DNA of 64,000 bases from an uncultured Dehalococcoidales bacterium (GCA_964586515.1 CAZPGJ010000004.1:154539-218538), one strand, 5' to 3'; shown: positions 2-27,615, numbered from the stretch's first letter. Numbers and translations: made by a program. Notes: a model not told the origin generated them from the sequence alone.

Positions 2-2161
2 TTCCCCGGCGGTGGAGTAGCGCTTATTCGGCCATTCTTTGCCTGGCTTGTCTCTGGCACTATTCTGCTTGTCAGTCACGGGGCAACAACTCTATATCAC
101 ATGGAAGTGATAGCCGCTTACGTGCCTGCTATTCTGGGCGGTCTGACACTTATCCCCGTGTACTTTATTGGCAAGGAACTGTTTAACCGCTGGGTCGGCG
201 TAATTTCAGCTGCTCTAGTTGGCATCCTGCCCAGTGAATTTCTGCATCGTTCGCTGCTTGGCTTTACCGACCACCATGTAGCTGAGACTTTGTTTACCGC
301 CGTGAGCGCACTCTTTCTGATAATGGCCATTAAGCGAGCTCGAGAAAGGGAGATGTCCTTCGGGCACATTCTAAGTAGAGACTGGTCAACTATCAGGAGA
401 CCTCTCATCTATATGCTGCTCGCTGCCATCTTCTTGGGCTTTTATCTCCTTACCTGGCAAGGTGGGCTGTTGTTCGTCTTTATCATATTTGTTTACCTGG
501 TGATTCAGTTCGTAGGGGACCACATGACGCGTAAATCGAGCGACTATCTGTGCATTATAGGCACTCCTCTTTTCCTTATCGCCTTCCTCATGCTTCTTCC
601 GTTATTGGGCAGTGGCAGCTTTGAAGGGCTTTATCGTGTATCTATGCCAATTGCCATATTGGTGCCCGTACTCTTAAGCGTTATCTCGCGGCTCATGTCG
701 GGCAGGAATTTGAGGCCTGTTTACTACCCTTTGGCTCTACTGGCACTGCTTGGAATCGGGCTGGCTGCTTTGCATGCTATCAATCCCTCCCTATTTGGGT
801 ACATGTTCAGCCAATTCAGGGTCTTCAGTCCGGCTGGCGCGATGCTGACTGTCATGGAGGTGCATCCCCTGGACTTGAGCATAGCCTGGGCCAACTTTAA
901 CACCTCCTTCTTCATCTCATTTGTCTCCTTTGCCATGCTTATTTACATCGCTATTAAGGAAAGAAGTGCCGACAAGACCCTGTTCCTGGTATGGAGCATT
1001 ATGATGTTGATAGCAGTCTTTGGACAGCGCCGCTTCGGTTACTACTATGTCGTAAATGCTGCCTTGCTCACAGGGTATTTCTCCTGGAAAATGCTGGACT
1101 TGGCTGGATTGAGAAAATTGCTGGCTAAGCCTAAGGAACTTGTGGGAGCGGTTAAGAAATTCAAGAAAGGGAAAAAAGCCAAGGAGAAAGCAAGGAAAAA
1201 AACATTTATGCAGCCCAGAGGCGCCTGGGTAAATGTCATCATCGTGGGAATAATCCTCTTTTTCGTCGTCTTTTTCCCCAGTATTGGAGTGCGGGGGAAG
1301 ACGCCTACCAAAATTGCTGGAAGTGGTCCGGATTGGTTTTCCATTGGATACACACCGTATATTGCCGCGATGCCAAATCAGATTATGAACGAGGGGTGGT
1401 ATAGCGCATGTGTATGGCTAAGGGATAACAGTCCCGAACCTTTTAGTGACCCCAATTCCTATTATGAGATATACCCGCCGCAGAGTGAGTTTAAATATCC
1501 CGAGACCGCCTACGGCGTAATGTCCTGGTGGGACTATGGCTACTTTATCATGCAGATTGCCCATCGCATACCCAATGCCAATCCTGGCCAGAATGGGGCT
1601 AAGGAAGCCGGCGAGTTCTTTACCGCCCAGAATGATAGTTCAGCCCGGGAAATTGTGGAGCGGTACGACTTACGTACGAAATATGTGATGATTGACTATG
1701 CAATGGCAACGCCAGCGAAGTTCTATGCTATGGCAGAGTGGGCTGGCAGCAATGAAAGCAAGTTTTACGGAATTTATTACGTGCCTTCATCAAGTGGTGG
1801 TGGGCAATGGACATATTTATTCTATCCCACCTACTACGACTCTCTTGTGGTTAGGCTCTACAACTTTGACGGCCAAGCCGTGACTCCCACGAAACCGATA
1901 GTCATATCTTATGAAAATAAGGTGACCAGTACGGGACAGGAGTATATGGAAGTCACCGGTGCGCAATATTTCTCCAGCTATGAAGAGGCTCAAGCTTATG
2001 TCGCAAGCCAGACGTCTGGAAACTATAGAATAGTGGGCACCAGCCCCTTTACTAGCATTGTGCCTCTTGAAGCATTGAACAGCTATGAGCGCGTCTATTC
2101 ATCTGGCGACACTACAAATCAAACAACCGTGAAAGTTTTCGAGTACCTGGGCGGGTCCTGA
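2..2161 (+). CDS. aglB: Archaeal-type oligosaccharyltransferase (AglB/STT3 family), 5'-partial
   Basis: WWDYG motif (SWWDYGYF), GFTDHHVAE, TVME (TIXE-like), many TM segments and a soluble C-terminal domain. The frame of ORF 101..2161 is open back to base 2 (FPGGG..RPFFAWL), so the gene starts before the window. Confidence 0.9.
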   Translation, partial: FPGGGVALIRPFFAWLVSGTILLVSHGATTLYHMEVIAAYVPAILGGLTLIPVYFIGKELFNRWVGVISAALVGILPSEFLHRSLLGFTDHHVAETLFTAVSALFLIMAIKRAREREMSFGHILSRDWSTIRRPLIYMLLAAIFLGFYLLTWQGGLLFVFIIFVYLVIQFVGDHMTRKSSDYLCIIGTPLFLIAFLMLLPLLGSGSFEGLYRVSMPIAILVPVLLSVISRLMSGRNLRPVYYPLALLALLGIGLAALHAINPSLFGYMFSQFRVFSPAGAMLTVMEVHPLDLSIAWANFNTSFFISFVSFAMLIYIAIKERSADKTLFLVWSIMMLIAVFGQRRFGYYYVVNAALLTGYFSWKMLDLAGLRKLLAKPKELVGAVKKFKKGKKAKEKARKKTFMQPRGAWVNVIIVGIILFFVVFFPSIGVRGKTPTKIAGSGPDWFSIGYTPYIAAMPNQIMNEGWYSACVWLRDNSPEPFSDPNSYYEIYPPQSEFKYPETAYGVMSWWDYGYFIMQIAHRIPNANPGQNGAKEAGEFFTAQNDSSAREIVERYDLRTKYVMIDYAMATPAKFYAMAEWAGSNESKFYGIYYVPSSSGGGQWTYLFYPTYYDSLVVRLYNFDGQAVTPTKPIVISYENKVTSTGQEYMEVTGAQYFSSYEEAQAYVASQTSGNYRIVGTSPFTSIVPLEALNSYERVYSSGDTTNQTTVKVFEYLGGS

Positions 2162-2334
2162 GTAAAAATACAGCCATCCATTGCAAGTGGAGGGGGATTT
2201 GTGGGCTCTCATAGTTGGGGCACTGCTAGAACGTCAGTACCAGGTAATAATCCCTGATGGCCTCTTCACGGGAAGCTGGAAAACATAAGACTGCTTACTG
2301 AGCCATCTTGGTATTCCGACCTTTCCTCTTTTGT

Positions 2335-2525
2335 TGTCATTGCGAGCAACCTGCCCGCCTGTTCACCGTACGACTTCGGCAGGCGAGCCAAGGCTTGGCA
2401 GGCGGGAGCGTGGCAATCTCTATTGCCCCCACCGAGATTGCTTCGGCTGACTTCGTCAGCCTCGCAATGACAAAGGGGGTGTCGTGCCTCGCAATGACAG
2501 AAGAAGCGTGTGCCTCGCAATGACA
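2335..2525. repeat. GTCA/TGAC-tagged palindromic (REP-like) cluster with nested insert and three right-end copies
   Basis: TGTCATTGCGAG...GCAATCTC left half, GAGATTGC...CTCGCAATGACA right half; CTCGCAATGACA recurs near 2461, 2488 and 2514. Confidence 0.85.
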
Positions 2526-2614
2526 ATTTGCGTTGTCAAACGCTCTTCTGATAAAGTGCTTAAAAAGTAAGAAGGTGGTAGGTTAGCAATCTTGAGTAAT
2601 GGAGTTAAGCAGGG

Positions 2615-3770: not shown

Positions 3771-4157
3771 ATAACAATTCGTAGTTATCAGGACTTGGAG
3801 GTATGGCAAAGGGCGATGGATCTGGTAGAAGATTGCTATCGACTGACAAAGGAATTTCCCAAGGAAGAAGTCTATGGGCTTTCAAGTCAGTTGCAACGTT
3901 CAGCGGTTTCAATTCCAGCCAATATAGCCGAAGGCCGAGAACGGGGACGTACAAAAGAGTTTCTCCATCACCTTTCAATCGCTTATGGTTCCCTTGCTGA
4001 ATTAGAGACTCACATTTTGATTGCTCGACGCTTGGACTGCGTTAGTGAAGAGAATATAGGGCAATTGATGGATAAAATGGCGGAGATTGGGCGTATGCTT
4101 AATGGTTTGCGGGGGTCTTTAAAACACAGAACCCAGTCCCCGATCCCCAGTTCCTGA
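3771..4157 (+). CDS. Four-helix-bundle protein (23S rRNA IVS protein family); start codon uncertain
   Basis: IRSYQDLEVWQRAMDL..FPKEEVYGLSSQLQRSAVSIPANIAEG signature. The conserved N-terminus lies upstream of the TTG at 3795; the ATG at 3757 is out of frame. Confidence 0.85.
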   Translation: MTIRSYQDLEVWQRAMDLVEDCYRLTKEFPKEEVYGLSSQLQRSAVSIPANIAEGRERGRTKEFLHHLSIAYGSLAELETHILIARRLDCVSEENIGQLMDKMAEIGRMLNGLRGSLKHRTQSPIPSS

Positions 4158-4187: not shown

Positions 4188-4757
4188 ATGCCATTTGCTT
4201 TCAATAGGTTAGAGATTCCGGGGGTAGTCTTGATAAAACCAGAGGTTTTTGTGGATGGGAGGGGTTTCTTTACGGAAACATACAAGATGACGAATTTTGT
4301 TACTGCTGGCATAAAGGTAAATTTCGTCCAGGAGAATCACTCCCGTTCTGGTAAAGGGGTCCTGAGGGGATTGCATTATCAAAACCCACCCTTTGCACAG
4401 GGAAAGTTGGTGAGGGTGATAAGGGGCGAGATATTTGATGTCGCCGTTGACATTAGAAAGGGCTCGCCTACCTGGGGTAAATGGGTAGGGGTAATCTTAT
4501 CGGAAGAGAATAAAAATATTCTCTATGTTCCGGCAGGCCTTGCTCATGGGTTCTGTGTCCTTTCAGAAATTGCCGAGGTCATATATAAAACCACCAATGT
4601 CTACTCCGCTGAATCTGAAGCTGGTATTATCTGGAATGATGAGGACTTGGATATCGAGTGGCCTGTTAAGGAGCCGATTCTATCTGAAAAAGACAAGAAA
4701 TGGCCTGCGCTAAAGAATGCGGATATCAAATTTTACTATGCAGAGGAGGCAAAATGA
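4188..4757 (+). CDS. rmlC: dTDP-4-dehydrorhamnose 3,5-epimerase
   Basis: DGRGFF, QENHSRS..GVLRGLHYQ, QGKLVRVIRGEIFDVAVDIR. Confidence 0.95.
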   Translation: MPFAFNRLEIPGVVLIKPEVFVDGRGFFTETYKMTNFVTAGIKVNFVQENHSRSGKGVLRGLHYQNPPFAQGKLVRVIRGEIFDVAVDIRKGSPTWGKWVGVILSEENKNILYVPAGLAHGFCVLSEIAEVIYKTTNVYSAESEAGIIWNDEDLDIEWPVKEPILSEKDKKWPALKNADIKFYYAEEAK

Positions 4758-5758
4758 AGCTACTTGTCACCGGCGGCGCCGGCTTTATCGGCAGTAATTT
4801 CATTCGTCATATGTGGCAGGCGCACCCGGATTGGGAGATAACCAATCTGGACAAGCTCACCTATGCCGGCAACCTGGAAAACTTAAAAGACATACAAGAC
4901 CAGTCCGGCTACCACTTTGTCAAAGGAGACATAGCTGATAGGAAGCTGGTAGATAAGCTGCTGAGCCAGGGGCCCGATGTCATTGTGAACTTTGCTGCTG
5001 AGAGCCACGTTGACCGCAGCATCCTGGACGCCTCGCCATTCATCGAGACTAATGTTAAAGGGACTCAGGTGCTCCTCGAAGGGGCAAAAAAGCACGGGAT
5101 TCAAAGATTTATCCAAGTGTCCACCGATGAAGTCTATGGCTCTATTAATAGCGGCCGCTTTACTGAAGAATCAACTTTATCTCCCAACAGCCCGTATTCA
5201 GCCAGCAAAGCCGCTGCTGACCTTTTATGTCGCGCCTACTTCAAGACCCATCATCTGACGACAATTATCACCCGCTGCACCAACAACTTCGGACCGTACC
5301 AGTTTCCTGAGAAATTAATTCCCTTGGCTGTCACCAATGCCCTGGAAGATAAACCAATCCCCGTCTATGGCGATGGCCTCAACATCAGGGACTGGATCTT
5401 TGTAGTTGACCACTGCCGGGCTCTGGATGCCGTCATTCAGAAAGGCCAGCCCGGAGAGATATATAATATCGGCGGCGGCAATGAGAAGACCAACCTGGAA
5501 ATTATCCGCAAGCTGCTGGAGCTGCTGGGCAAACCACAGAGCCTGATGCAATTCGTTACCGACCGTCCTGCCCACGACCGCCGCTACGCTCTGGATTGCG
5601 CCAAAATAGCCACAGAACTGGGCTGGAAGTCAGATTATTCCTTTGAAAAAGCTTTGAGCGCTACTGTTGACTGGTATCTAAAGAACGAGTCCTGGTGGCG
5701 GTCAATCAAAAGCGGCGAGTATTCCGAATACTACAAGAAAATGTACCTCAAAAGGTGA
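4754..5758 (+). CDS. rmlB: dTDP-glucose 4,6-dehydratase
   Basis: MKLLVTGGAGFIGSNF, DKLTYAGN, AAESHVDRSI, YSASK; start set at ATG 4754 after GGAGG, overlapping the rmlC stop. Confidence 0.95.
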   Translation: MKLLVTGGAGFIGSNFIRHMWQAHPDWEITNLDKLTYAGNLENLKDIQDQSGYHFVKGDIADRKLVDKLLSQGPDVIVNFAAESHVDRSILDASPFIETNVKGTQVLLEGAKKHGIQRFIQVSTDEVYGSINSGRFTEESTLSPNSPYSASKAAADLLCRAYFKTHHLTTIITRCTNNFGPYQFPEKLIPLAVTNALEDKPIPVYGDGLNIRDWIFVVDHCRALDAVIQKGQPGEIYNIGGGNEKTNLEIIRKLLELLGKPQSLMQFVTDRPAHDRRYALDCAKIATELGWKSDYSFEKALSATVDWYLKNESWWRSIKSGEYSEYYKKMYLKR

Positions 5759-6624
5759 AAGTAGCGGTCACAGGCGCTAACGGGCAACTGGGCACTGATT
5801 TGTGCCGAACCCTGCATAACTTCGATGTCGTTCCCTTTACGCATGCTGATATCGAAATTGCCGATATGGCTTCTGTCAGGGAAGCCATGCTGAAACACAA
5901 GCCGGCTATTATTATAAATACCGCCGCTTATGTTCGAGTTGATGACTGCGAAGACGAAAAAGATAAAGCTTTCCAGGTGAATGCTCTGGGGGCCCGCAAT
6001 GTCGCTGTGGTTGCCCAAGAACTCGGAGCCCGGCTGGTCCACATCAGCACCGACTATATCTTCGGCGGCGAGGCTAAGCCGCGGACTACCCCCTATACCG
6101 AATTCGATACACCTGTTCCCCTGAGCGTTTATGGAAAATCCAAGCTGGCTGGGGAAACCCTTGTCCGCCATCTGTGCCATAGACACTTCATCGCCAGGGC
6201 TTCGGGACTTTTCGGCGTGGCCGGCTCCAGCGGCAAAGGCGGCAACTTCATTGAGGCCATGCTCAGGCTGGCCAGAGAGCGCGATGAACTCAAGGTGGTC
6301 AATGACCAGGTCTTTTCCCCCACCTACACCAGTGACTTAGCCCAAAAAATAGGCCAGCTAATGACCACCGACTATTACGGCATATTCCATATCACCAACA
6401 GAGGCACCTGCTCCTGGTATGAGTTCACCACAGAGATATTTAGGCTGGCTGGCATAAAGACCCCGGTCGCCCCCATAACTTCAGGCCAGTACCCCCAGAA
6501 AGCCCGGAGACCCCGCTATTCGGTGCTGGATAATTACCACCTGCGTCTCCTGGGCATGGACGACATGAGGCCCTGGCAAGAAGCGCTAAAAGATTACCTG
6601 ATAGCCAGAGGTCACATCGCCTGA
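5755..6624 (+). CDS. rmlD: dTDP-4-dehydrorhamnose reductase
   Basis: GANGQLG, HISTDYIFGG, YGKSKLAGE, ARRPRYSVL; GTG 5755 overlaps the rmlB stop. Confidence 0.93.
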   Translation: MKVAVTGANGQLGTDLCRTLHNFDVVPFTHADIEIADMASVREAMLKHKPAIIINTAAYVRVDDCEDEKDKAFQVNALGARNVAVVAQELGARLVHISTDYIFGGEAKPRTTPYTEFDTPVPLSVYGKSKLAGETLVRHLCHRHFIARASGLFGVAGSSGKGGNFIEAMLRLARERDELKVVNDQVFSPTYTSDLAQKIGQLMTTDYYGIFHITNRGTCSWYEFTTEIFRLAGIKTPVAPITSGQYPQKARRPRYSVLDNYHLRLLGMDDMRPWQEALKDYLIARGHIA

Positions 6625-6645
6625 AAGCAATCAGCCCTTTTCCCA

Positions 6646-6905
6646 CGTCATTGTGAGCCCTTCCCCACATGTCATTGCGAGCGACCTGCCCGCCTGCTCG
6701 CCGTACGACTTCGGCAGGCGAGCCAAGGCTTGGCAGGCGGGGGCGCGCGGCAATCTCCGAGATTGCTTCGGCTGGTTTCACCAGCCTCGCAATGACAGGG
6801 CCGTGTCATTGTGAGCCCCGACTTGTCGGAGCGAAGAATCTCCCCTCTCTGCTCAAGTCTGTCATGACCGGAATCGAAGGGCCTGTCCTAAGTAAAGGCG
6901 AACGG
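6646..6905. repeat. REP-like palindromic repeat cluster at the left edge of the TA islet
   Basis: Several GTCATTG(C/T)GAG left halves, one complete unit closing with CTCGCAATGACA, and a nested 57-nt insert matching 2350..2406. Confidence 0.85.
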
Positions 6906-7077
6906 GGCGGGCGGTGTAGAAGGAACATTTTTGAATCCTAAACTGTTATTTTTACCTTTTGATGCTTGATTTTTCTTACTTTGTCCATCTCGTTAGGCAC
7001 ACCTGAAGGTACACCGCTACTCACCTTCACAAACATATATCAGCTATCTAAAATCTTCAGGCAAAACAGCAATTCGC

Positions 7078-7106
7078 TTGCTTCTCTTCTGTATATATCG
7101 TATGAT
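7078..7106 (+). promoter_or_regulatory. Sigma70-type promoter of the TA islet
   Basis: TTGCTT-17 nt-TATGAT. Confidence 0.5.
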
Positions 7107-7152
7107 TGTCCACATTAGGAGTTAAGAAATATGTGTATTATCCGAGGACAAG

Positions 7153-7437
7153 ATGGATAGGGCCAGAATCCTTGAGAAAATTGCTCAGGCACTTAAGGAG
7201 CAAGGTGCAACCAAGATAGCCATCTTTGGCTCCTATGCTAGAGGGGAAGAGAGACCAGACAGCGATATTGATGTCATTGTAGAATTCTCGGAAAAGAAAA
7301 GCCTTCTTGAGCTAGTGAGGATGGAGAGGGAGCTCCATGAAGCATTAGGAATAAAGGTAGACTTGCTGACGGAGAAGTCCATAAGCCCATACCTGATTGA
7401 TATTGTGAAGCAGCAAATGGAGGTAATCTGCGGGTGA
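7153..7437 (+). CDS. Minimal nucleotidyltransferase (MNT) antitoxin-type protein
   Basis: IAIFGSYARGEERPDSDIDVIVEF (GS..DxD motif), 94 aa. Confidence 0.88.
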   Translation: MDRARILEKIAQALKEQGATKIAIFGSYARGEERPDSDIDVIVEFSEKKSLLELVRMERELHEALGIKVDLLTEKSISPYLIDIVKQQMEVICG

Positions 7438-7476
7438 GAAAGGACGGAAGAACTAAGAGCAAAGGAGGTAGTTAAG

Positions 7477-7677
7477 ATGGCGATCAGGGAGCGCCTTATC
7501 AATAAGATACAATCTTTGCCAGAGGATAAGCTCGATGAAATTGCCGACTTCATCGAATTTCTAGAGGTAAAAGGGAAAGCACAATCTGCCCTGGCAGAAT
7601 ATGGGATGGGCGACTATTTGAACCAACTGTCAGCCTACGAAGAGATGCTGGCTGCTGGCAAGATAAAGTGGACATAA
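7477..7677 (+). CDS. DUF2281-like antitoxin
   Basis: LINKIQSLPEDKLDEIADFIEFL pattern; GGAGG RBS; overlaps the PemK/MazF toxin start. Confidence 0.7.
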   Translation: MAIRERLINKIQSLPEDKLDEIADFIEFLEVKGKAQSALAEYGMGDYLNQLSAYEEMLAAGKIKWT

Positions 7678-8012
7678 AAAGAGGAGATATTTTCTTAGTC
7701 GACCTGAATCCTGTTGTAGGCGCAGAACAAGCAGGCATAAGGCCTGCCCTAGTAATACAGGTAGACAGAGCAAATGCAGCTAGCCCTCACACGGTCATCA
7801 TTCCATTCACCACAAGGATAAGAGAGGTTAAGCTACCTTCCCATGTCAGGATACCTGCTGGTATTGGAGGATTGGCAGAGGACTCGATACTTCTGTGTGA
7901 GCAGATAAGAGTCATTGACAAAAGAAGACTGGTGCGGAAGATAGGCAGTATTGGAGAAGACTATTTAGGAGAGCTTGGCATAGCTATCAAGGTGATATTA
8001 GGTCTGGAATGA
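7668..8012 (+). CDS. mazF: PemK/MazF family endoribonuclease toxin
   Basis: RGDIFLVDLNPVVGAEQAGIRPALVIQ, LCEQIRVIDKRRL. Confidence 0.9.
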   Translation: MDIKRGDIFLVDLNPVVGAEQAGIRPALVIQVDRANAASPHTVIIPFTTRIREVKLPSHVRIPAGIGGLAEDSILLCEQIRVIDKRRLVRKIGSIGEDYLGELGIAIKVILGLE

Positions 8013-8029
8013 ACGAGAGTGCGACCCTT

Positions 8030-8140
8030 CAGGGTCGTGCCGCGCGAGGCTAAAGCTGGACCTCTCGTCATTCTGAGTCCCGATGCAATCGGGACGAAGA
8101 ATCTAACCTCTGCTCAGGCCTGTGCTGAGCGAAGTCGAAG
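8030..8140. repeat. Palindromic repeat cluster (CGACCCTTCAGGGTCG unit plus GTCATTCTGAG left half)
   Basis: Perfect palindrome CGACCCT-TC-AGGGTCG; GTCATTCTGAG-(TCCCGATGCAATCGGGA)-CGAAGAATCT; CTGAGCGAAGTCGAAG. Confidence 0.75.
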
Positions 8141-8188
8141 AGGTAAATTTCGCTTGACTAATTTAACTTCCGACTCTAGACTGGGGTT

Positions 8189-8288
8189 GGTGACTATTTC
8201 CGGGAAGTTAAGTAATGATGTTGGCAGGGGAACTCTAAACAGTATACTAAAGCAAGCTGGTCTGAAAGGAGTGGGAAGAGATGTTTAA
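8189..8288 (+). pseudogene. hicA: C-terminal half of a HicA toxin
   Basis: VTISGKLSNDVGRGTLNSILKQAGLK matches the HicA C-terminus; the N-terminal half is replaced by repeat DNA; directly upstream of hicB. Confidence 0.75.
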
Positions 8289-8496
8289 ATATACAATTGT
8301 AATTGAGAAGGCTGATGGTAATTATTCTGCATACTGTCCGGATTTGCCCGGCTGTGTAGCTACGGGGGCAAGTGTAGAGGAAACGACGGAAAGAATAAAA
8401 GAGGCTATTCAATTCCACATTGCAGGACTCAAGGCGGAAGGCTTGGATGTGCCACCGCCTGCCACTACTGCTGCTCTTGTCGAAGTAGCATTGTAG
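8281..8496 (+). CDS. hicB: HicB family antitoxin
   Basis: YTIVIEKADGNYSAYCPDLPGCVATG..EAIQFHIAGL. Confidence 0.88.
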   Translation: MFKYTIVIEKADGNYSAYCPDLPGCVATGASVEETTERIKEAIQFHIAGLKAEGLDVPPPATTAALVEVAL

Positions 8497-8503
8497 AGGA
8501 TTG

Positions 8504-8634
8504 AGAAAGCCCGGAGACCCCGCTACTCGGTGCTGGACAATTACCACCTGCGTCTCCTGGGCATGGATGACATGAGACGTTGGCGAGAAGCACTTAGAGA
8601 GTATATGATAAACAAAGGACATGTTAAACGATAA
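8504..8634 (+). pseudogene. Second copy of the rmlD 3' end
   Basis: Encodes KARRPRYSVLDNYHLRLLGMDDMRRWREALREYMINKGHVKR-stop; direct repeat of 6497..6624. Confidence 0.9.
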
Positions 8635-8761
8635 GGAAACGGTTGCTATGCAACCTTGTATTCAAGTATTATAGAGGATACAGCTTCAGACATAAATACT
8701 CCTTTGAGTAACACTTAGTGGGTGTCTTGGTCAGCTTTGATGGCACTATAGGAGGAAGCTA

Positions 8762-9739
8762 GTGATTGTAGTTCAAACTCCTTTAAGGGTAAGTTTTGTT
8801 GGAGGGGGCACTGATTTTGATGACTTCTATTTATCTCATGGTGGGGCTGTCATTAGTACTGCCATTGATAAATATGTCTTTGTCATTGTAAAGGAGAGAT
8901 TTGATGATCTAATTTGCCTGAACTACACGAAAAGAGAGCGAGTAGAAAGGGTAGATGACCTCGACCATGAGCTCGTCAGAGAAGCTATGAGAATAACGGG
9001 AGTAAGCAAAGGGATAGAGATTACAACCCTTGCTGATGTACCTGCAGAAGGAACTGGCCTTGGTTCATCGAGTAGTGTTACTGTAGGGTTGCTTCAAGCT
9101 CTCTATGCTTACAGGGGCGAACTCAGGACAGCCGAGACTTTAGCTCAGGAAGCATGCCGCATAGAGATAGACATGCTGAAGCACCCCATAGGGAGACAAG
9201 ATCAATACATCGCAGCATACGGCAATCTTCGCTTCATCACCTTCAGCGATGCTGGCGTTGAAGTTGATAAAGTTGAGCTTTCTCCCGAAGAGAAGAGAAG
9301 ACTAAATGATAATCTCCTTTGCTTCTATACAGGCATGACTAGAAAAGCAGGCGAAATTTTAAAGGAGCAGAAAGCAAACATAAACGACCGTCTTAACGTG
9401 TTGGGTGAAATGAAAAAACTTGCCTTTCGGGCGAGAGATGCTATCATGCAAGGTGCTTTTGATGAGTTGGGAGAGATTTTGCACTCAAGTTGGGAATTGA
9501 AAAAGACCCTTGCCAGCAAGATAACCAATCCCCAGATAGACGAAAGGTATGAGGCTGCTCGGAAAGCGGGAGCCATCGGCGGCAAGATTAGCGGAGCTGG
9601 AGGGGGTGGTTTTTTGCTCCTATATTGTCCGAAGGAAAAACAAGATACAGTGAGAAAAATCCTCAAACTTCGAGAGCTTCCTTTCCGCTTTGAGGCAGAT
9701 GGAAGCAAAGTAATTTTTAACTATAGGAGAGAGAGTTGA
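8762..9739 (+). CDS. hddA: D-glycero-alpha-D-manno-heptose-7-phosphate kinase (GHMP kinase)
   Basis: TPLRVSFVGGGTD, GTGLGSSSS, IGRQDQY, GGKISGAGGGGF; next to gmhA. Confidence 0.85.
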   Translation: MIVVQTPLRVSFVGGGTDFDDFYLSHGGAVISTAIDKYVFVIVKERFDDLICLNYTKRERVERVDDLDHELVREAMRITGVSKGIEITTLADVPAEGTGLGSSSSVTVGLLQALYAYRGELRTAETLAQEACRIEIDMLKHPIGRQDQYIAAYGNLRFITFSDAGVEVDKVELSPEEKRRLNDNLLCFYTGMTRKAGEILKEQKANINDRLNVLGEMKKLAFRARDAIMQGAFDELGEILHSSWELKKTLASKITNPQIDERYEAARKAGAIGGKISGAGGGGFLLLYCPKEKQDTVRKILKLRELPFRFEADGSKVIFNYRRES

Positions 9740-10299
9740 AGGTCTTGGATGCTATAGCTAAATACATATCTGGTGTGAGTGCCACATTGGAGAAGCTTCC
9801 AGTAGAGAAGATTGCCGAGGTTGTTAATTCGTTAGAAAAAGCACGACTCGAAGGCAATAAAGTTTTCATTTTTGGCAATGGAGGTTCAGCAGCTACCGCC
9901 TCACATTTCGCCAGTGACCTTTCCAAGGGAGCTATCCGCGAGGGAAAGCCACGGATAAAAGCCTTTGCTTTGACTGACAATACCCCCGTGCTTACAGCTT
10001 GGGCGAATGACACCTCTTATGAAAATATTTTCGCTGAACAGTTGGAGAACTGTGTTGATTCTGGAGACATTGTGATTGGCATCAGTGGAAGTGGCAATTC
10101 GCTAAATGTGCTGAAAGCTATGAATGTGGCAAGGGCCAAGGGGGCTAGCACCATCGGCTTTATCGGTTTTGACGGTGGAAAACTTAAGAGCCTTGTGGAT
10201 ATTGCCATTATAGTTCCCAGCCATAATATGGAGCAGGTCGAGGATGTACACCTGCTTCTTGAGCATGTTATCACCACCTGTTTAAGAGAGGCGCTTTAG
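9736..10299 (+). CDS. gmhA: Sedoheptulose-7-phosphate isomerase
   Basis: FGNGGSAATASHF, TAWAND, ISGSGNS, EQVEDVHL. Confidence 0.88.
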   Translation: MKVLDAIAKYISGVSATLEKLPVEKIAEVVNSLEKARLEGNKVFIFGNGGSAATASHFASDLSKGAIREGKPRIKAFALTDNTPVLTAWANDTSYENIFAEQLENCVDSGDIVIGISGSGNSLNVLKAMNVARAKGASTIGFIGFDGGKLKSLVDIAIIVPSHNMEQVEDVHLLLEHVITTCLREAL

Positions 10300-11297: not shown

Positions 11298-12041
11298 ATG
11301 ATACTTGCCGCAGGAGAAGGCACCAGGCTAAGACCACTCACCTTGGAAACTCCGAAGGTGCTTTTACCTGTAGCGGGTGTGCCACTGATTTATTATACCC
11401 TTGCCTGGCTCAGAAGCCATGGCATAGGAGAAGTATGCGTCAATCTCCACCACCTGGGTAGCAGGATAAAGGAGTCGCTTGGCGATGGCTCTCGGTTTGG
11501 AGTTAAAATCCGTTACTCTGATGAGGATGCACTTCTGGGGACTGCTGGCGGGGTGAAAAATGTTGAGGATTTTTTTGATGGCGCGTTTGTTGTTGTATAT
11601 GGGGATGTCCTTACCAATTTTGACCTCTCGAGCATGATGAAGCTCCACTGGGATAAGCAGGCTTTAGCAACGTTAGCAGTGACCGAGACGTTTAATCCTT
11701 CGGAAGTTGGTGTTGTTCAGATGGAAAAAGGCGGCAGGATTCTCTCTTTTCTTGAGAAGCCCCGGAAGGGAACTGAACCGGGGAATGTGGCGAGTGGTGG
11801 GATATACGTGTTAGAAAGGGATGTTCTTGACTTTATACCGAGCCAGGGCTTTTGCGATTTCGCCTACGACGTCTTCCCTAAACTCATAAGAGCAAATCTT
11901 CCTGTTTACGGGTATGTACTTAGACACGAAGATTACCTCATTGACATTGGCACCATTGACAAATACCTCAAAGCGAATGAGGATGTAAAATCAAGGAAGG
12001 TGAAAATAACGTATGAAGAACAGAGCAGTGTTCCTGGATAG
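11298..12041 (+). CDS. hddC: NDP-sugar pyrophosphorylase, probably heptose-1-phosphate guanylyltransferase
   Basis: MILAAGEGTRLRPLT..PK, LLGTAGG, YGDVL, IDIGT; substrate inferred from the hddA/gmhA/gmhB context; start trimmed from 11049. Confidence 0.75.
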   Translation: MILAAGEGTRLRPLTLETPKVLLPVAGVPLIYYTLAWLRSHGIGEVCVNLHHLGSRIKESLGDGSRFGVKIRYSDEDALLGTAGGVKNVEDFFDGAFVVVYGDVLTNFDLSSMMKLHWDKQALATLAVTETFNPSEVGVVQMEKGGRILSFLEKPRKGTEPGNVASGGIYVLERDVLDFIPSQGFCDFAYDVFPKLIRANLPVYGYVLRHEDYLIDIGTIDKYLKANEDVKSRKVKITYEEQSSVPG

Positions 12042-27543: not shown

Positions 27544-27615
27544 TGAGTTCGTCGAGTTTATTGAGTTTGTTGAGTTCATTGGGTTCACTGAGTTTATTGG
27601 GTTTGTTGAGATGGC
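27544..27615. repeat. Degenerate 9-nt tandem repeat (about 8 units, consensus TGAGTTTRT)
   Basis: TGAGTTCGT CGAGTTTAT TGAGTTTGT TGAGTTCAT TGGGTTCAC TGAGTTTAT TGGGTTTGT TGAGATGGC. Confidence 0.8.

What the first reader, a model, noticed from the sequence alone, without database searches (positions are those of the whole stretch)
6497..8634. TA islet inserted at the 3' end of rmlD with the gene end duplicated
6497..6624 and 8504..8634 are direct repeats of the last ~42 codons of rmlD. Over the first 24 codons (KARR..DDMR) I count four differences, all synonymous; the tails then diverge but stay similar as protein (WQEALKDYL vs WREALREYM). Between them lie ~1.9 kb of repeats and MNT, DUF2281-MazF and HicAB genes. 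This is the att-like replace-the-3'-end signature usually seen at tRNAs, here at a sugar gene and with no integrase; alternatively two related glycan loci recombined here.
Basis: partly seen in the sequence, partly recalled or inferred. Interest (0 to 1): 0.65.

Follow-up and report, generated by a model that had tools for sequence, protein, structure and literature searches.

The report
Leftover rmlD gene end behind toxin-antitoxin islet
A 129-base dead copy of the end of the rhamnose gene rmlD sits behind a small, partly decayed toxin-antitoxin islet in an uncultured Dehalococcoidia genome; it is a recombination scar at the edge of a variable sugar-gene locus, seen again and again in relatives, not the footprint of an integrase-driven mobile element.

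Summary
Window 6497-6624 (end of an intact rmlD, 5755-6624) is repeated at 8504-8634. The first 24 codons show four differences, all synonymous; the tails then diverge. Independent assemblies reproduce both ends.

Between the copies lie:
- hairpin repeat (REP) elements;
- MNT without its HepT toxin;
- an intact DUF2281-MazF pair;
- hicA with its 5' half deleted;
- hicB.

There is no integrase here or in about ten related islets.

The architecture (rmlD, toxin-antitoxin genes, rmlD 3' remnant, variable glycan genes) recurs in other Dehalococcoidia contigs, with different cargo, tails and downstream genes. The hicB-remnant joint is shared by six loci. It lies in a 7-nt microhomology, GAAAGCC, between hicB's usual 3' flank and rmlD. 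Remnants sit where a full rmlD sits in islet-less relatives. Tail B travels with the hddA heptose cluster in a relative that has neither rmlD nor hicAB nearby. The intact gene carries the tail typical of its clade.

Best reading: an integrase-free, homology-plus-microhomology recombination scar, followed by exchange within the conserved core.

One point remains unexplained: five different joints begin within about 10 nt of one site. Interest is modest.

The parts
5755..6624 (+). Intact rmlD (dTDP-4-dehydrorhamnose reductase), 289 aa. The GTG start overlaps the rmlB stop. It carries the clade-typical tail ...KDYLIARGHIA.
   Evidence: Pfam PF04321 positions 1-282 of 287, E=6e-91. The same tail and post-stop sequence occur in L010, L011, L013, L015, L016 and L007.
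6497..6624 (+). Repeat copy A: the last 42 codons of rmlD plus the stop codon.
6625..6900 (.). Cluster of REP/MITE-like elements built on the GTCATTGYGAGC motif. It includes a roughly 130-nt nested hairpin element at 6669-6798.
   Evidence: 16 motif hits in the window against 0.87 expected. DNA fold -53.4 kcal/mol, z=-5.5. Contig depth about 40 times that of the flanks.
7058..7446 (+). MNT antitoxin cassette (gene 7153-7437). Its HepT toxin partner is missing.
   Evidence: PF01909 and PF18765. 87% DNA identity to L018, where HepT follows MNT; in the window the similarity stops 9 nt past the MNT stop.
7451..8012 (+). DUF2281 antitoxin (7477-7677) plus MazF/PemK toxin (7668-8012). This is the only complete toxin-antitoxin pair.
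   Evidence: PF10047 and PF02452, E=4.5e-29. 89% DNA identity to the cassette next to the remnant in L007-L009.
8013..8150 (.). Second REP unit.
   Evidence: raised depth
8154..8288 (+). Promoter-like site of hicA (TTGACT, 17 nt, TAGACT) followed by a hicA remnant of the C-terminal 34 codons only. About 155 nt, including the start codon, are deleted.
   Evidence: Pfam HicA profile positions 29-58 of 58 only. Alignment to intact hicA of L004 and L010. Promoter scan.
8281..8496 (+). hicB antitoxin, intact, 71 aa.
   Evidence: PF15919. 92-96% identity to HicB of L004, L010, L012 and L057.
8497..8505 (+). Joint between the hicB 3' flank and the rmlD remnant, lying in the microhomology GAAAGCC. A 1-nt deletion here destroys the ATG that is present in relatives.
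   Evidence: Side-by-side sequences. One contig in run X6 carries the extra T.
8504..8634 (+). Repeat copy B: a dead rmlD 3' remnant of 42 codons plus stop. It has a GC-rich core of the resident type and an AT-rich foreign tail B.
   Evidence: (PF04321 positions 248-282). Tail B plus the intergenic region is 75.5% identical to L137, where it again precedes hddA.
8641..8655 (+). Short GC hairpin directly after the remnant's stop codon. It looks like a terminator and is probably the former rmlD terminator of the donor allele.
   Evidence: consensus match only
8762..9739 (+). hddA-like GHMP kinase, the first gene of the lower-GC heptose cluster (hddA, gmhA, epimerase, nucleotidyltransferase, phosphatase).
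   Evidence: Pfam; composition; relatives.

Best explanation
The second rmlD end is a recombination scar at the border between the conserved rml operon and a hypervariable glycan locus of a Dehalococcoidia bacterium.

Toxin-antitoxin (TA) cassettes collect in the REP-rich spacer just behind rmlD. At some point, DNA ending in the hicAB cassette was joined to the last 128 nt of an rmlD gene. The left side recombined by homology in the rml operon. The right side joined illegitimately at the 7-nt microhomology GAAAGCC, which hicB's own 3' flank shares with rmlD. This resembles homology-facilitated illegitimate recombination or a template switch. The result is an intact rmlD, the TA DNA, and a promoterless rmlD 3' remnant in front of the downstream genes.

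Later exchanges within the conserved 72-nt core swapped the remnant's tail and the glycan cluster behind it. In the window this gave tail B plus the hddA heptose cluster. The same process kept the core similar to the resident gene.

The islet then decayed: HepT was lost, hicA was truncated, and the start codon in front of the remnant was lost.

No integrase is involved, and the remnant itself has no function.

Shown: the anatomy, its recurrence in relatives, the microhomology at the joint, the linkage of tail B to hddA, and the absence of an integrase.

Inferred: the order of events, and whether the hicB joint arose once and was inherited or arose repeatedly at the same microhomology.
For: 1. 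The architecture recurs with different cargo and different downstream genes:
- L010: rmlD, REP, hicAB, remnant, GtrA.
- L004: rmlD, UPF0150, REP, hicAB, remnant, WcbI.
- L057: rmlD, REP, hicAB, remnant, small membrane-protein (TM) gene.
- L005/L006: ParE-type islet, then remnant.
- L007-L009: 5.4 kb of TA modules, then remnant.
- L144 and L140: further variants.

2. The hicB-stop plus 8 nt plus remnant joint is the same in the window, L003, L004, L010, L057 and (diverged) L055, although these carry different tails.

3. hicB is followed by GATGAAAGCC|AATTCAYGGATTATCACC plus REP, with no remnant, in L012, L009, L059 (behind AglB) and L060 (a housekeeping context). This is therefore hicB's native flank, and the joint lies in GAAAGCC, which is also present in rmlD (CCCAGAAAGCC|CGGAGA). 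The 18 nt that follow are not a decayed remnant.

4. L057's remnant plus spacer is colinear with islet-less L013: rmlD end, post-stop sequence, ACGCAAGTTGACA promoter, TM gene. L012 is the same locus with hicAB but no duplication. Remnants in L055 and L140 (and probably L005, where only a short NAD_binding_8 ORF follows) precede a DAO-type gene, as full-length rmlD does in L017, L022 and L024.

5. Tail B, the intergenic region and hddA (90% aa identity) occur together in L137-L139. There the remnant is a decayed pseudogene, and neither rmlD nor hicAB is nearby.

6. The window's intact gene has the clade-typical tail A and post-stop sequence. GC drops from about 0.55-0.59 to about 0.45 across the locus.

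7. L004 carries a further, more decayed remnant 4 kb downstream. L056 and P0138 are rmlD genes with internal deletions. The L056 joint sits at a microhomology. These show that such illegitimate events are common here.

8. No integrase or recombinase Pfam hit occurs in any islet.

9. Joining at 3-10 bp microhomologies beside a homologous anchor is the documented signature of HFIR (PMC6382021, citing de Vries and Wackernagel 2002).
Against: The order of events cannot be proven from sequence alone.

Five junction types have unrelated left partners: hicB, ParE, DUF2283, a 29-aa ORF, and the P0133/P0136 type. All begin within about 10 nt of the same rmlD position. Random illegitimate joining does not predict this, and it could point to a site-preferring process.

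No relative was found with a full-length, tail-B rmlD directly in front of hddA.

Within-genome homogenisation of the core rests on few informative sites, except in L005.

Only assembled contigs were available, not raw reads, so rare excision or deletion forms could not be seen.
Confidence: 0.65

Rival explanations
1. A decayed or non-autonomous site-specific integrative element. An integrase, since lost or acting in trans, inserted toxin-antitoxin-carrying DNA at an att site inside the rmlD 3' end. The element supplied a replacement gene end and left the original end as attR, as prophage e14 does at icd/icdC.
For: Direct repeats of a gene's 3' end flank accessory DNA. Five junction types with unrelated left partners start within about 10 nt of one rmlD position. 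The e14 icd/icdC precedent exists for a protein-coding gene (PMC13626634).
Against: No integrase occurs in this or about ten related islets. Toxin-antitoxin genes end 8-38 nt from the remnant, which leaves no room for arm sites, and those flanks show no significant similarity to hicB or its flank. The hicB joint is accounted for by hicB's own flank. Other boundaries lie at about -30, +17, +40, +45 and +75 nt. The intact gene's tail is the native clade type. The site shows no hairpin and no excess synonymous conservation.
Confidence: 0.1
2. An in-situ tandem duplication. Unequal exchange between GAAAGCC in rmlD and GAAAGCC behind hicB on sister chromosomes duplicated the segment from the rmlD end through REP and hicAB. 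The second hicAB copy was later deleted, and the tail and downstream cluster were replaced.
For: In L057 both tails are of the resident type. In L004 the remnant is followed by the same REP, and possibly a remnant of the hicA upstream region, that follows full-length rmlD in L010 and L012. The microhomology is the same.
Against: This needs extra steps to reach the window's state: loss of the second hicAB copy and replacement of the tail. No locus with two hicAB copies flanking a remnant was found. The L007 remnant is fused to the 5' end of a wzx gene of a different cluster type, not to the wzx that follows it, which favours exchange between genomes.
Confidence: 0.15
3. The remnant is kept because it does something. 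It might provide a signal in cis for expression of the downstream cluster, or it might encode a 42-73 aa micro-protein consisting of the RmlD C-terminus.
For: Several junction types place an in-frame ATG in front of the remnant: hicB-type ATG|AAA, L144 MLCIVGDA|ARRP, and L007 fused to 33 wzx codons. The window's remnant has no frameshift or internal stop.
Against: The window's copy has lost the ATG. The L137-L139 copy carries a frameshift and a stop yet still precedes an intact hddA. Promoter-like sites lie downstream of the remnant, not inside it. The core shows no excess synonymous constraint.
Confidence: 0.05
4. An assembly artefact that joins two strains or loci at a shared rmlD segment or at a REP repeat.
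For: All short-read assemblies break inside the REP at 6670-6800.
Against: The two copies share no 31-mer, because their differences are spaced less than 31 nt apart. Both flanking contigs have equal depth in three runs, and copy B lies in one contig with both hicB and hddA. The same order is contiguous in independent contigs L004, L010 and L057.
Confidence: 0.02

Closest known systems
[quoted passage not shown] 2002, as cited in PMC6382021)
   Same: There is a long homologous anchor on one side (the rml operon, 85-93% identical among relatives). The joint on the other side lies in a 7-nt microhomology. No recombinase gene is present. Foreign DNA is gained next to the anchor.
   Different: The process here is only inferred from natural sequence and has not been observed. 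The illegitimate joint fell inside the recipient's copy of the anchor gene, so a 128-nt duplication resulted instead of a deletion. Natural competence of these uncultured Dehalococcoidia is unknown.
Prophage e14 at icd/icdC in E. coli K-12 (Hill et al. 1989, as described in PMC13626634)
   Same: An intact gene whose 3' end is followed by accessory DNA and then a C-terminal pseudogene fragment of the same gene. Differences in the shared part are mostly synonymous.
   Different: e14 encodes its own integrase and excises site-specifically. Here there is no integrase, the cargo consists only of toxin-antitoxin cassettes and REP elements, the cargo differs between loci, and the intact gene carries the native tail.
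Gene remnants at recombination junctions of O-antigen and capsule loci bordered by conserved sugar-nucleotide genes (from my own knowledge of enterobacterial and streptococcal polysaccharide loci; not checked in papers here)
   Same: A conserved biosynthetic gene marks the edge of a hypervariable glycan cluster. Cluster switching leaves truncated gene copies and shifts in GC content.
   Different: The host phylum is Chloroflexota/Dehalococcoidia, with an AglB-type oligosaccharyltransferase nearby. The scar is coupled to a toxin-antitoxin islet and recurs at nearly the same position.
Type II toxin-antitoxin islands at chromosomal hotspots (MazEF, HicAB, MNT-HepT)
   Same: Several small toxin-antitoxin cassettes are stacked in one intergenic hotspot, some with the toxin lost and the antitoxin kept.
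   Different: Only DUF2281-MazF is complete here. No activity has been tested.

Membership tests
Integrase-mediated integrative element (e14/icd type) | Direct repeats made of the target gene's 3' end flank the element | tested here: met
   6497-6624 against 8504-8634
Integrase-mediated integrative element (e14/icd type) | A tyrosine or serine recombinase gene inside or next to the element | tested here: not met
   Every ORF between the repeats is MNT, DUF2281, MazF, a HicA remnant or HicB. None of the related islets has a recombinase.
Integrase-mediated integrative element (e14/icd type) | Conserved element-end (arm) sequences adjoin the repeats in independent occurrences | tested here: not met
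   The left partners of the remnant differ (hicB, ParE, DUF2283, 29-aa ORF, wzx') and show no significant similarity to hicB or its flank.
Integrase-mediated integrative element (e14/icd type) | Excision or circular junctions, or an empty site carrying the distal tail | tested here: inconclusive
   No such joint appears in contigs of 8 runs, but raw reads were not available. Empty sites exist for tail A (L011, L013). None was found for tail B.
HFIR / microhomology-mediated illegitimate recombination scar | The joint lies in a short (3-10 bp) microhomology between the two parental sequences | tested here: met
   GAAAGCC is present in hicB's native flank (L009, L012, L059, L060) and in rmlD, and the joint is exactly there.
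HFIR / microhomology-mediated illegitimate recombination scar | An adjacent long homologous anchor | tested here: met
   rmlB and rmlD are 82-93% identical as protein among the closest relatives, directly upstream of the joint.
HFIR / microhomology-mediated illegitimate recombination scar | RecA-dependent uptake of foreign DNA is demonstrated | not testable with these tools
   The organism is an uncultured MAG lineage.
RmlD, dTDP-4-dehydrorhamnose reductase (PF04321) | Full-length match to the family profile | tested here: met
   Copy A's gene matches profile positions 1-282 of 287, E=6e-91. Copy B covers only positions 248-282 (E=1.2e-5) and is a fragment.
MazEF-type type II toxin-antitoxin pair | PemK/MazF toxin with an overlapping upstream small antitoxin gene | tested here: met
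   PF02452 E=4.5e-29. The DUF2281 gene overlaps the toxin gene by 10 nt. Activity was not tested.
HicAB type II toxin-antitoxin pair | Intact HicA toxin upstream of HicB | tested here: not met
   Only HicA profile positions 29-58 of 58 remain. About 155 nt are deleted relative to L004 and L010.
MNT-HepT toxin-antitoxin pair | HepT (HEPN) toxin gene next to MNT | tested here: not met
   MNT is followed after 40 nt by DUF2281. The L018 orthologue has HepT.

The most novel reading that the evidence does not exclude
The position CAG|AAAGCCCGG, 128 nt before the rmlD stop codon, may be a preferred break or docking point in these Dehalococcoidia. Toxin-antitoxin cassettes and whole glycan clusters would be captured there repeatedly. 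The cause could be a recombinase or nuclease acting in trans, or break-induced copying from a relative's locus followed by microhomology end-joining. That would make rmlD a protein-gene 'attachment site' for an integrase-free cassette array.
Probability: 0.12. Interest if true: 0.6.

Novelty: new member of a known kind. Interest (0 to 1): 0.33.

Why it matters
The finding documents, in an uncultured and little-studied phylum, how cell-surface glycan loci are reshuffled. A conserved rml operon serves as the recombination anchor. Toxin-antitoxin cassettes pile up at the border. Each exchange can leave a short gene-end scar, and these scars can be read as a record of past events: the tails track the downstream cluster, and one relative carries two scars.

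For annotation, it warns that the 42-74 aa proteins labelled 'dTDP-4-dehydrorhamnose reductase' in metagenome databases are such scars. It also warns that a duplicated 3' gene end does not by itself indicate an integrase-driven island.

If the clustering of junctions at one site proves to be site-specific, it would point to an undescribed way of capturing cassettes.

Tried and rejected
- Rfam (gathering thresholds) and tRNA scans found nothing near the locus; the only tRNA is at 49.7 kb. There is therefore no tRNA-type att site.
- I looked for a full-length tail-B rmlD directly upstream of hddA in the closest HddA relatives. None was found. L137-L139 have only the decayed remnant, L143 has other genes, and L140 has rmlD 6 kb away.
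- I tested whether the left flanks of the non-hicB junctions (L137, L005, L007, L140, L144) are decayed hicB ends. They are not significant (P=0.05-0.97).
- I tested whether hicB's AATTCAYGGATTATCACC flank is itself a decayed rmlD remnant. It is not significant, and the best alignments fall at inconsistent positions.
- I tested whether L007's wzx' fragment duplicates the wzx gene that follows it, which would indicate a simple tandem duplication. It does not; it matches the wzx of L015-type clusters.
- I looked for a hairpin at the common boundary. There is none (z about 0).
- I looked for extra synonymous conservation in the core, which would suggest an embedded DNA or RNA element. There is none: rank 110 of 267 windows. 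The high nucleotide identity comes from amino-acid conservation.
- I looked for an islet-loss joint (about 6570 to 8580) in contigs of eight runs. None was seen. Only REP-to-REP skips appear, and they cannot be assigned to this locus.
- The apparently longer fragments P0006-P0008 were checked through P0008, which is a gene cut by a contig end. The others sit on contigs of similar size (about 1-2 kb) and were assumed to be the same, so all were dropped as evidence.
- An apparent similarity of window 7000-7060 to the promoter of the small membrane-protein gene of L011/L013 was not confirmed by blastn, so I do not claim it.
Full report
**1. The observation**

Window 6497-6614 and 8504-8621 form a direct repeat of 118 nt at 86% identity. 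The alignment extends to the two stop codons at 6622-6624 and 8632-8634.

Copy A is the end of an intact rmlD. The gene starts with GTG at 5755, overlapping the rmlB stop, and encodes 289 aa. It matches PF04321 over profile positions 1-282 of 287 with E=6e-91.

Copy B starts 8 nt after the hicB stop codon. It has no start codon and covers only profile positions 248-282.

The first 24 codons are identical as protein and differ at four synonymous sites. After that the tails read PWQEALKDYLIARGHIA* and RWREALREYMINKGHVKR*. tblastn gives E=1e-20 for copy B, so this is not a chance match.

**2. Not an assembly artefact**

Logan contigs of three sediment runs reproduce 5600-6698 and 6712-9400 without a single difference. 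Depth is equal on both sides: 26.7 vs 26.9, 136.8 vs 145.1, and about 8 vs about 7. The only break lies in a repeat that is about 40 times deeper than its flanks.

The two copies share no 31-mer. Copy B is contiguous with both hicB and hddA. No contig joins the two copies with the islet removed. Only contigs were available, so rare forms cannot be excluded.

**3. What lies between the copies**

- 6625-6900: REP/MITE-like elements built on GTCATTGYGAGC. The motif occurs 16 times in the window against 0.87 expected. The 6669-6798 unit folds into a nested hairpin (z=-5.5).
- 7058-7446: an MNT cassette whose HepT toxin is missing. The orthologous cassette in L018 has HepT. In the window the similarity stops 9 nt after the MNT stop.
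- 7451-8012: an intact DUF2281-MazF pair, 89% identical to the cassette next to the remnant in L007-L009.
- About 8013-8150: a second REP unit.
- 8154 onward: the hicA promoter-like site, followed directly by the last 34 codons of hicA. About 155 nt, including the start codon, are deleted. An intact hicB follows.

Two of the three modules have therefore lost their toxin. There is no integrase and no nearby tRNA or Rfam match.

**4. Organism and setting**

The closest RmlD genes (76-89% identity) are all from Dehalococcoidia/Chloroflexota MAGs. The locus is a glycosylation island. An AglB/STT3-type transferase is followed by rmlA, a 23S-IVP gene, rmlC, rmlB and rmlD. The islet comes next, then a lower-GC heptose cluster (hddA, gmhA and others) and glycosyl- and methyltransferases.

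**5. The architecture recurs**

A search with the 43-aa remnant peptide returned only short 'RmlD' proteins. Their contigs show the same layout.

| Locus | Layout |
|---|---|
| L010 | rmlCBD, REP, hicA-hicB, remnant, GtrA-like gene |
| L004 | rmlACBD, UPF0150, small ORF, REP, hicA-hicB, remnant, REP, WcbI; a second, more decayed remnant lies 4 kb further on |
| L057 | rmlD, REP, hicAB, remnant, small membrane-protein gene |
| L003, L055 | hicB, then remnant, close to the contig start (upstream context cut off) |
| L005, L006 | rmlD, antitoxin-ParE, remnant |
| L007-L009 | rmlD, 5.4 kb of toxin-antitoxin modules ending in DUF2281-MazF, then a remnant fused to 33 codons of a wzx gene |
| L144 | MNT, DUF4258-DUF2283, remnant, UPF0150 and more |
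| L140 | rmlD, UPF0150, a tail-only remnant, DAO |

Most species-representative genomes of the clade have a single rmlD and no remnant. In those genomes rmlD is followed by one of the following:
- a small membrane-protein (TM) gene plus a glycerophosphotransferase (L011, L013, L016, L020);
- a DAO oxidoreductase (L017, L022, L024);
- toxin-antitoxin genes without a remnant (L012, L015, L018, L019).

None of the islets contains a recombinase.

**6. The hicB-remnant joint**

In the window, L003, L004, L010 and L057 the sequence is hicB-TAG-AGGATTGATG-AAAGCCCGGAG... L055 has a diverged form. The window has lost one T, which removes an ATG.

In L012 and L009 (both behind rmlD), L059 (behind AglB) and L060 (next to housekeeping genes), hicB is instead followed by AGGATTGATGAAAGCC|AATTCAYGGATTATCACC plus REP. 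That sequence is therefore hicB's own flank.

rmlD reads CCCAGAAAGCC|CGGAGA at the corresponding point. The joint thus lies in a 7-nt microhomology, GAAAGCC. The 18 nt after it in the native flank are not a recognisable decayed remnant. Joints at 3-10 bp microhomologies next to a homologous anchor are the hallmark of homology-facilitated illegitimate recombination (PMC6382021).

**7. The remnant sits in the native position of an rmlD end**

Islet-less L013 reads: rmlD stop, AAGCAACCAGCCCCTT, one REP unit, ACGCAAGTTGACA, TM gene.

L057 reads: remnant stop, ACTCAGCTAGCCCTT, ACGCAAGTTGACA, the same gene.

L012 is the same locus with hicAB inserted in the spacer and no duplication.

The remnants of L055 and L140 precede a DAO-type gene, just as full-length rmlD does in L017, L022 and L024. 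L005 probably fits too; there only a short NAD_binding_8 ORF, possibly a DAO N-terminal fragment, follows.

**8. Tail B belongs to the heptose cluster**

The closest HddA relatives with usable context (90% aa identity; L137-L139) have AglB, a UDP-sugar dehydrogenase, a 2-epimerase and a 29-aa ORF. A decayed rmlD remnant follows, with a frameshift, an internal stop, and a tail reading REYMTNKGYVK*. Then comes a 75.5%-identical spacer and hddA-gmhA. Neither rmlD nor hicAB is nearby.

Similar tails occur on full-length rmlD genes of more distant lineages (L005, L034, L056, L140). The window's intact gene has the tail and post-stop sequence typical of its own sub-clade.

In both the window and L137, the remnant combines a GC-rich core of the resident type with an AT-rich tail. 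The tail and spacer are about three times more diverged than the core. In L005 the remnant core carries the lineage-specific codons of L005's own rmlD. This pattern fits exchange or gene conversion inside the conserved core.

The core's high nucleotide identity across the clade comes from amino-acid conservation. Pairwise amino-acid identity is 92.6%, the highest among the sampled 24-codon windows of the gene. Synonymous constraint is not exceptional (rank 110 of 267 windows).

**9. Interpretation**

The best-supported account is an integrase-free recombination scar. Toxin-antitoxin cassettes gather in the REP-rich spacer behind rmlD. A homologous exchange in the rml operon was combined with an illegitimate join at GAAAGCC. 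This placed the segment from the rmlD end through REP and hicAB in front of the last 128 nt of an rmlD. Later exchanges through the core brought in tail B with the heptose cluster. The islet then gained the MNT and MazEF cassettes and lost HepT, half of hicA and the ATG.

The hicB joint may have arisen once and been inherited, or it may have arisen repeatedly at the same microhomology. The evidence does not decide this. An in-situ tandem duplication is a possible first step.

The e14 icd/icdC case (PMC13626634) is the closest look-alike. Its defining features, an integrase and conserved element ends, were tested here and not met.

**10. What remains unexplained**

Five junction types with unrelated left partners start within about 10 nt of the same rmlD position. 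Offsets are given relative to the first A of AAAGCC:
- hicB type: -1
- ParE type: -3
- DUF2283 type: +2
- 29-aa ORF type: +5
- P0133/P0136 type: about -5

Other boundaries lie at about -30, +17, +17, +40, +45 and +75.

Two factors explain why all remnants are short. Long direct repeats would delete the islet, so only short ones survive. The protein search also favours short ORFs. Neither factor explains the peak at one position.

The site marks the start of the most conserved amino-acid block of the protein. It has no hairpin. A preferred break or template-switch point, or a recombinase acting in trans, cannot be excluded. I give that reading about 12%.

**11. Verdict**

Its meaning is ordinary in kind: a gene-end scar plus a decaying toxin-antitoxin islet at a glycan-locus border. 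It is nevertheless a clear, recurrent example in an uncultured phylum. Interest is modest.

Noticed in passing
window 2266-2526, 6647-6816, 8067-8140, ~27.6 kb, ~28.5 kb, ~35.3 kb: A family of REP/MITE-like elements built on GTCATTGYGAGC, with terminal inverted repeats and nested hairpins (z=-5.5). There are 16 motif hits in the window against 0.87 expected. Contig depth suggests about 40 copies. The elements flank hicAB cassettes in several unrelated contexts (L012, L059, L060) and break every short-read assembly. They produce spurious ORFs of the 'CHCEA...' kind.
   Followed up: partly
window 3795-4157; L005:7059-7424; L007:1138-1563, 2241-2606, 4678-5061; L015:~11350-11850: Genes for the 23S-rRNA-intervening-sequence protein (four-helix bundle, PF05635) sit in different intergenic gaps of the rml operon in different relatives, and are absent in L004 and L010. 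This looks like another small gene family that moves within the locus.
   Followed up: no
window 101-2161: An AglB/STT3-type oligosaccharyltransferase with the WWDYGY motif lies at the head of the glycan locus of a Dehalococcoidia bacterium. It is conserved in relatives (L005, L137, L059). This suggests the island serves protein N-glycosylation or a related lipid-linked glycan pathway.
   Followed up: no
L003:109-243, L004:5797-5925, L010:3980-4108, L144:1289-1441, L007:10001-10222: In several junction types an in-frame ATG precedes the remnant, giving called ORFs of 42-73 aa that consist mostly of the RmlD C-terminus. Databases label these 'dTDP-4-dehydrorhamnose reductase'. The window's copy lost the ATG through a 1-nt deletion.
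   Followed up: partly
L056:1066-1345; protein P0138: These are rmlD pseudogenes with large internal deletions. The N-terminal 57 codons (L056) or 21 codons (P0138) are joined to the C-terminal end. In L056 the joint sits at a CCGC microhomology. They show frequent illegitimate deletion in this gene.
   Followed up: partly
L004:10010-10102: A further, strongly decayed rmlD 3' remnant (RAKRTGYSIPDHYYLRPLGTDDIR..., E=5e-5) lies between methyltransferase genes, 4 kb downstream of the first remnant. It suggests serial rounds of cluster replacement.
   Followed up: no
window ~27544-27608; L007:9120-9256 and 9945-9995; L058:976-1027; L061 several: Short tandem repeats of the AACAAACTCNATGAACTC type recur in intergenic DNA of toxin-antitoxin islets and at one place in the window. 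They were seen only as BLAST side hits.
   Followed up: no
window 7153-7437 and 8154-8496: Two antitoxins are kept without a working toxin: MNT without HepT, and HicB with a truncated HicA. Only DUF2281-MazF is complete. This is the usual direction of toxin-antitoxin decay.
   Followed up: yes
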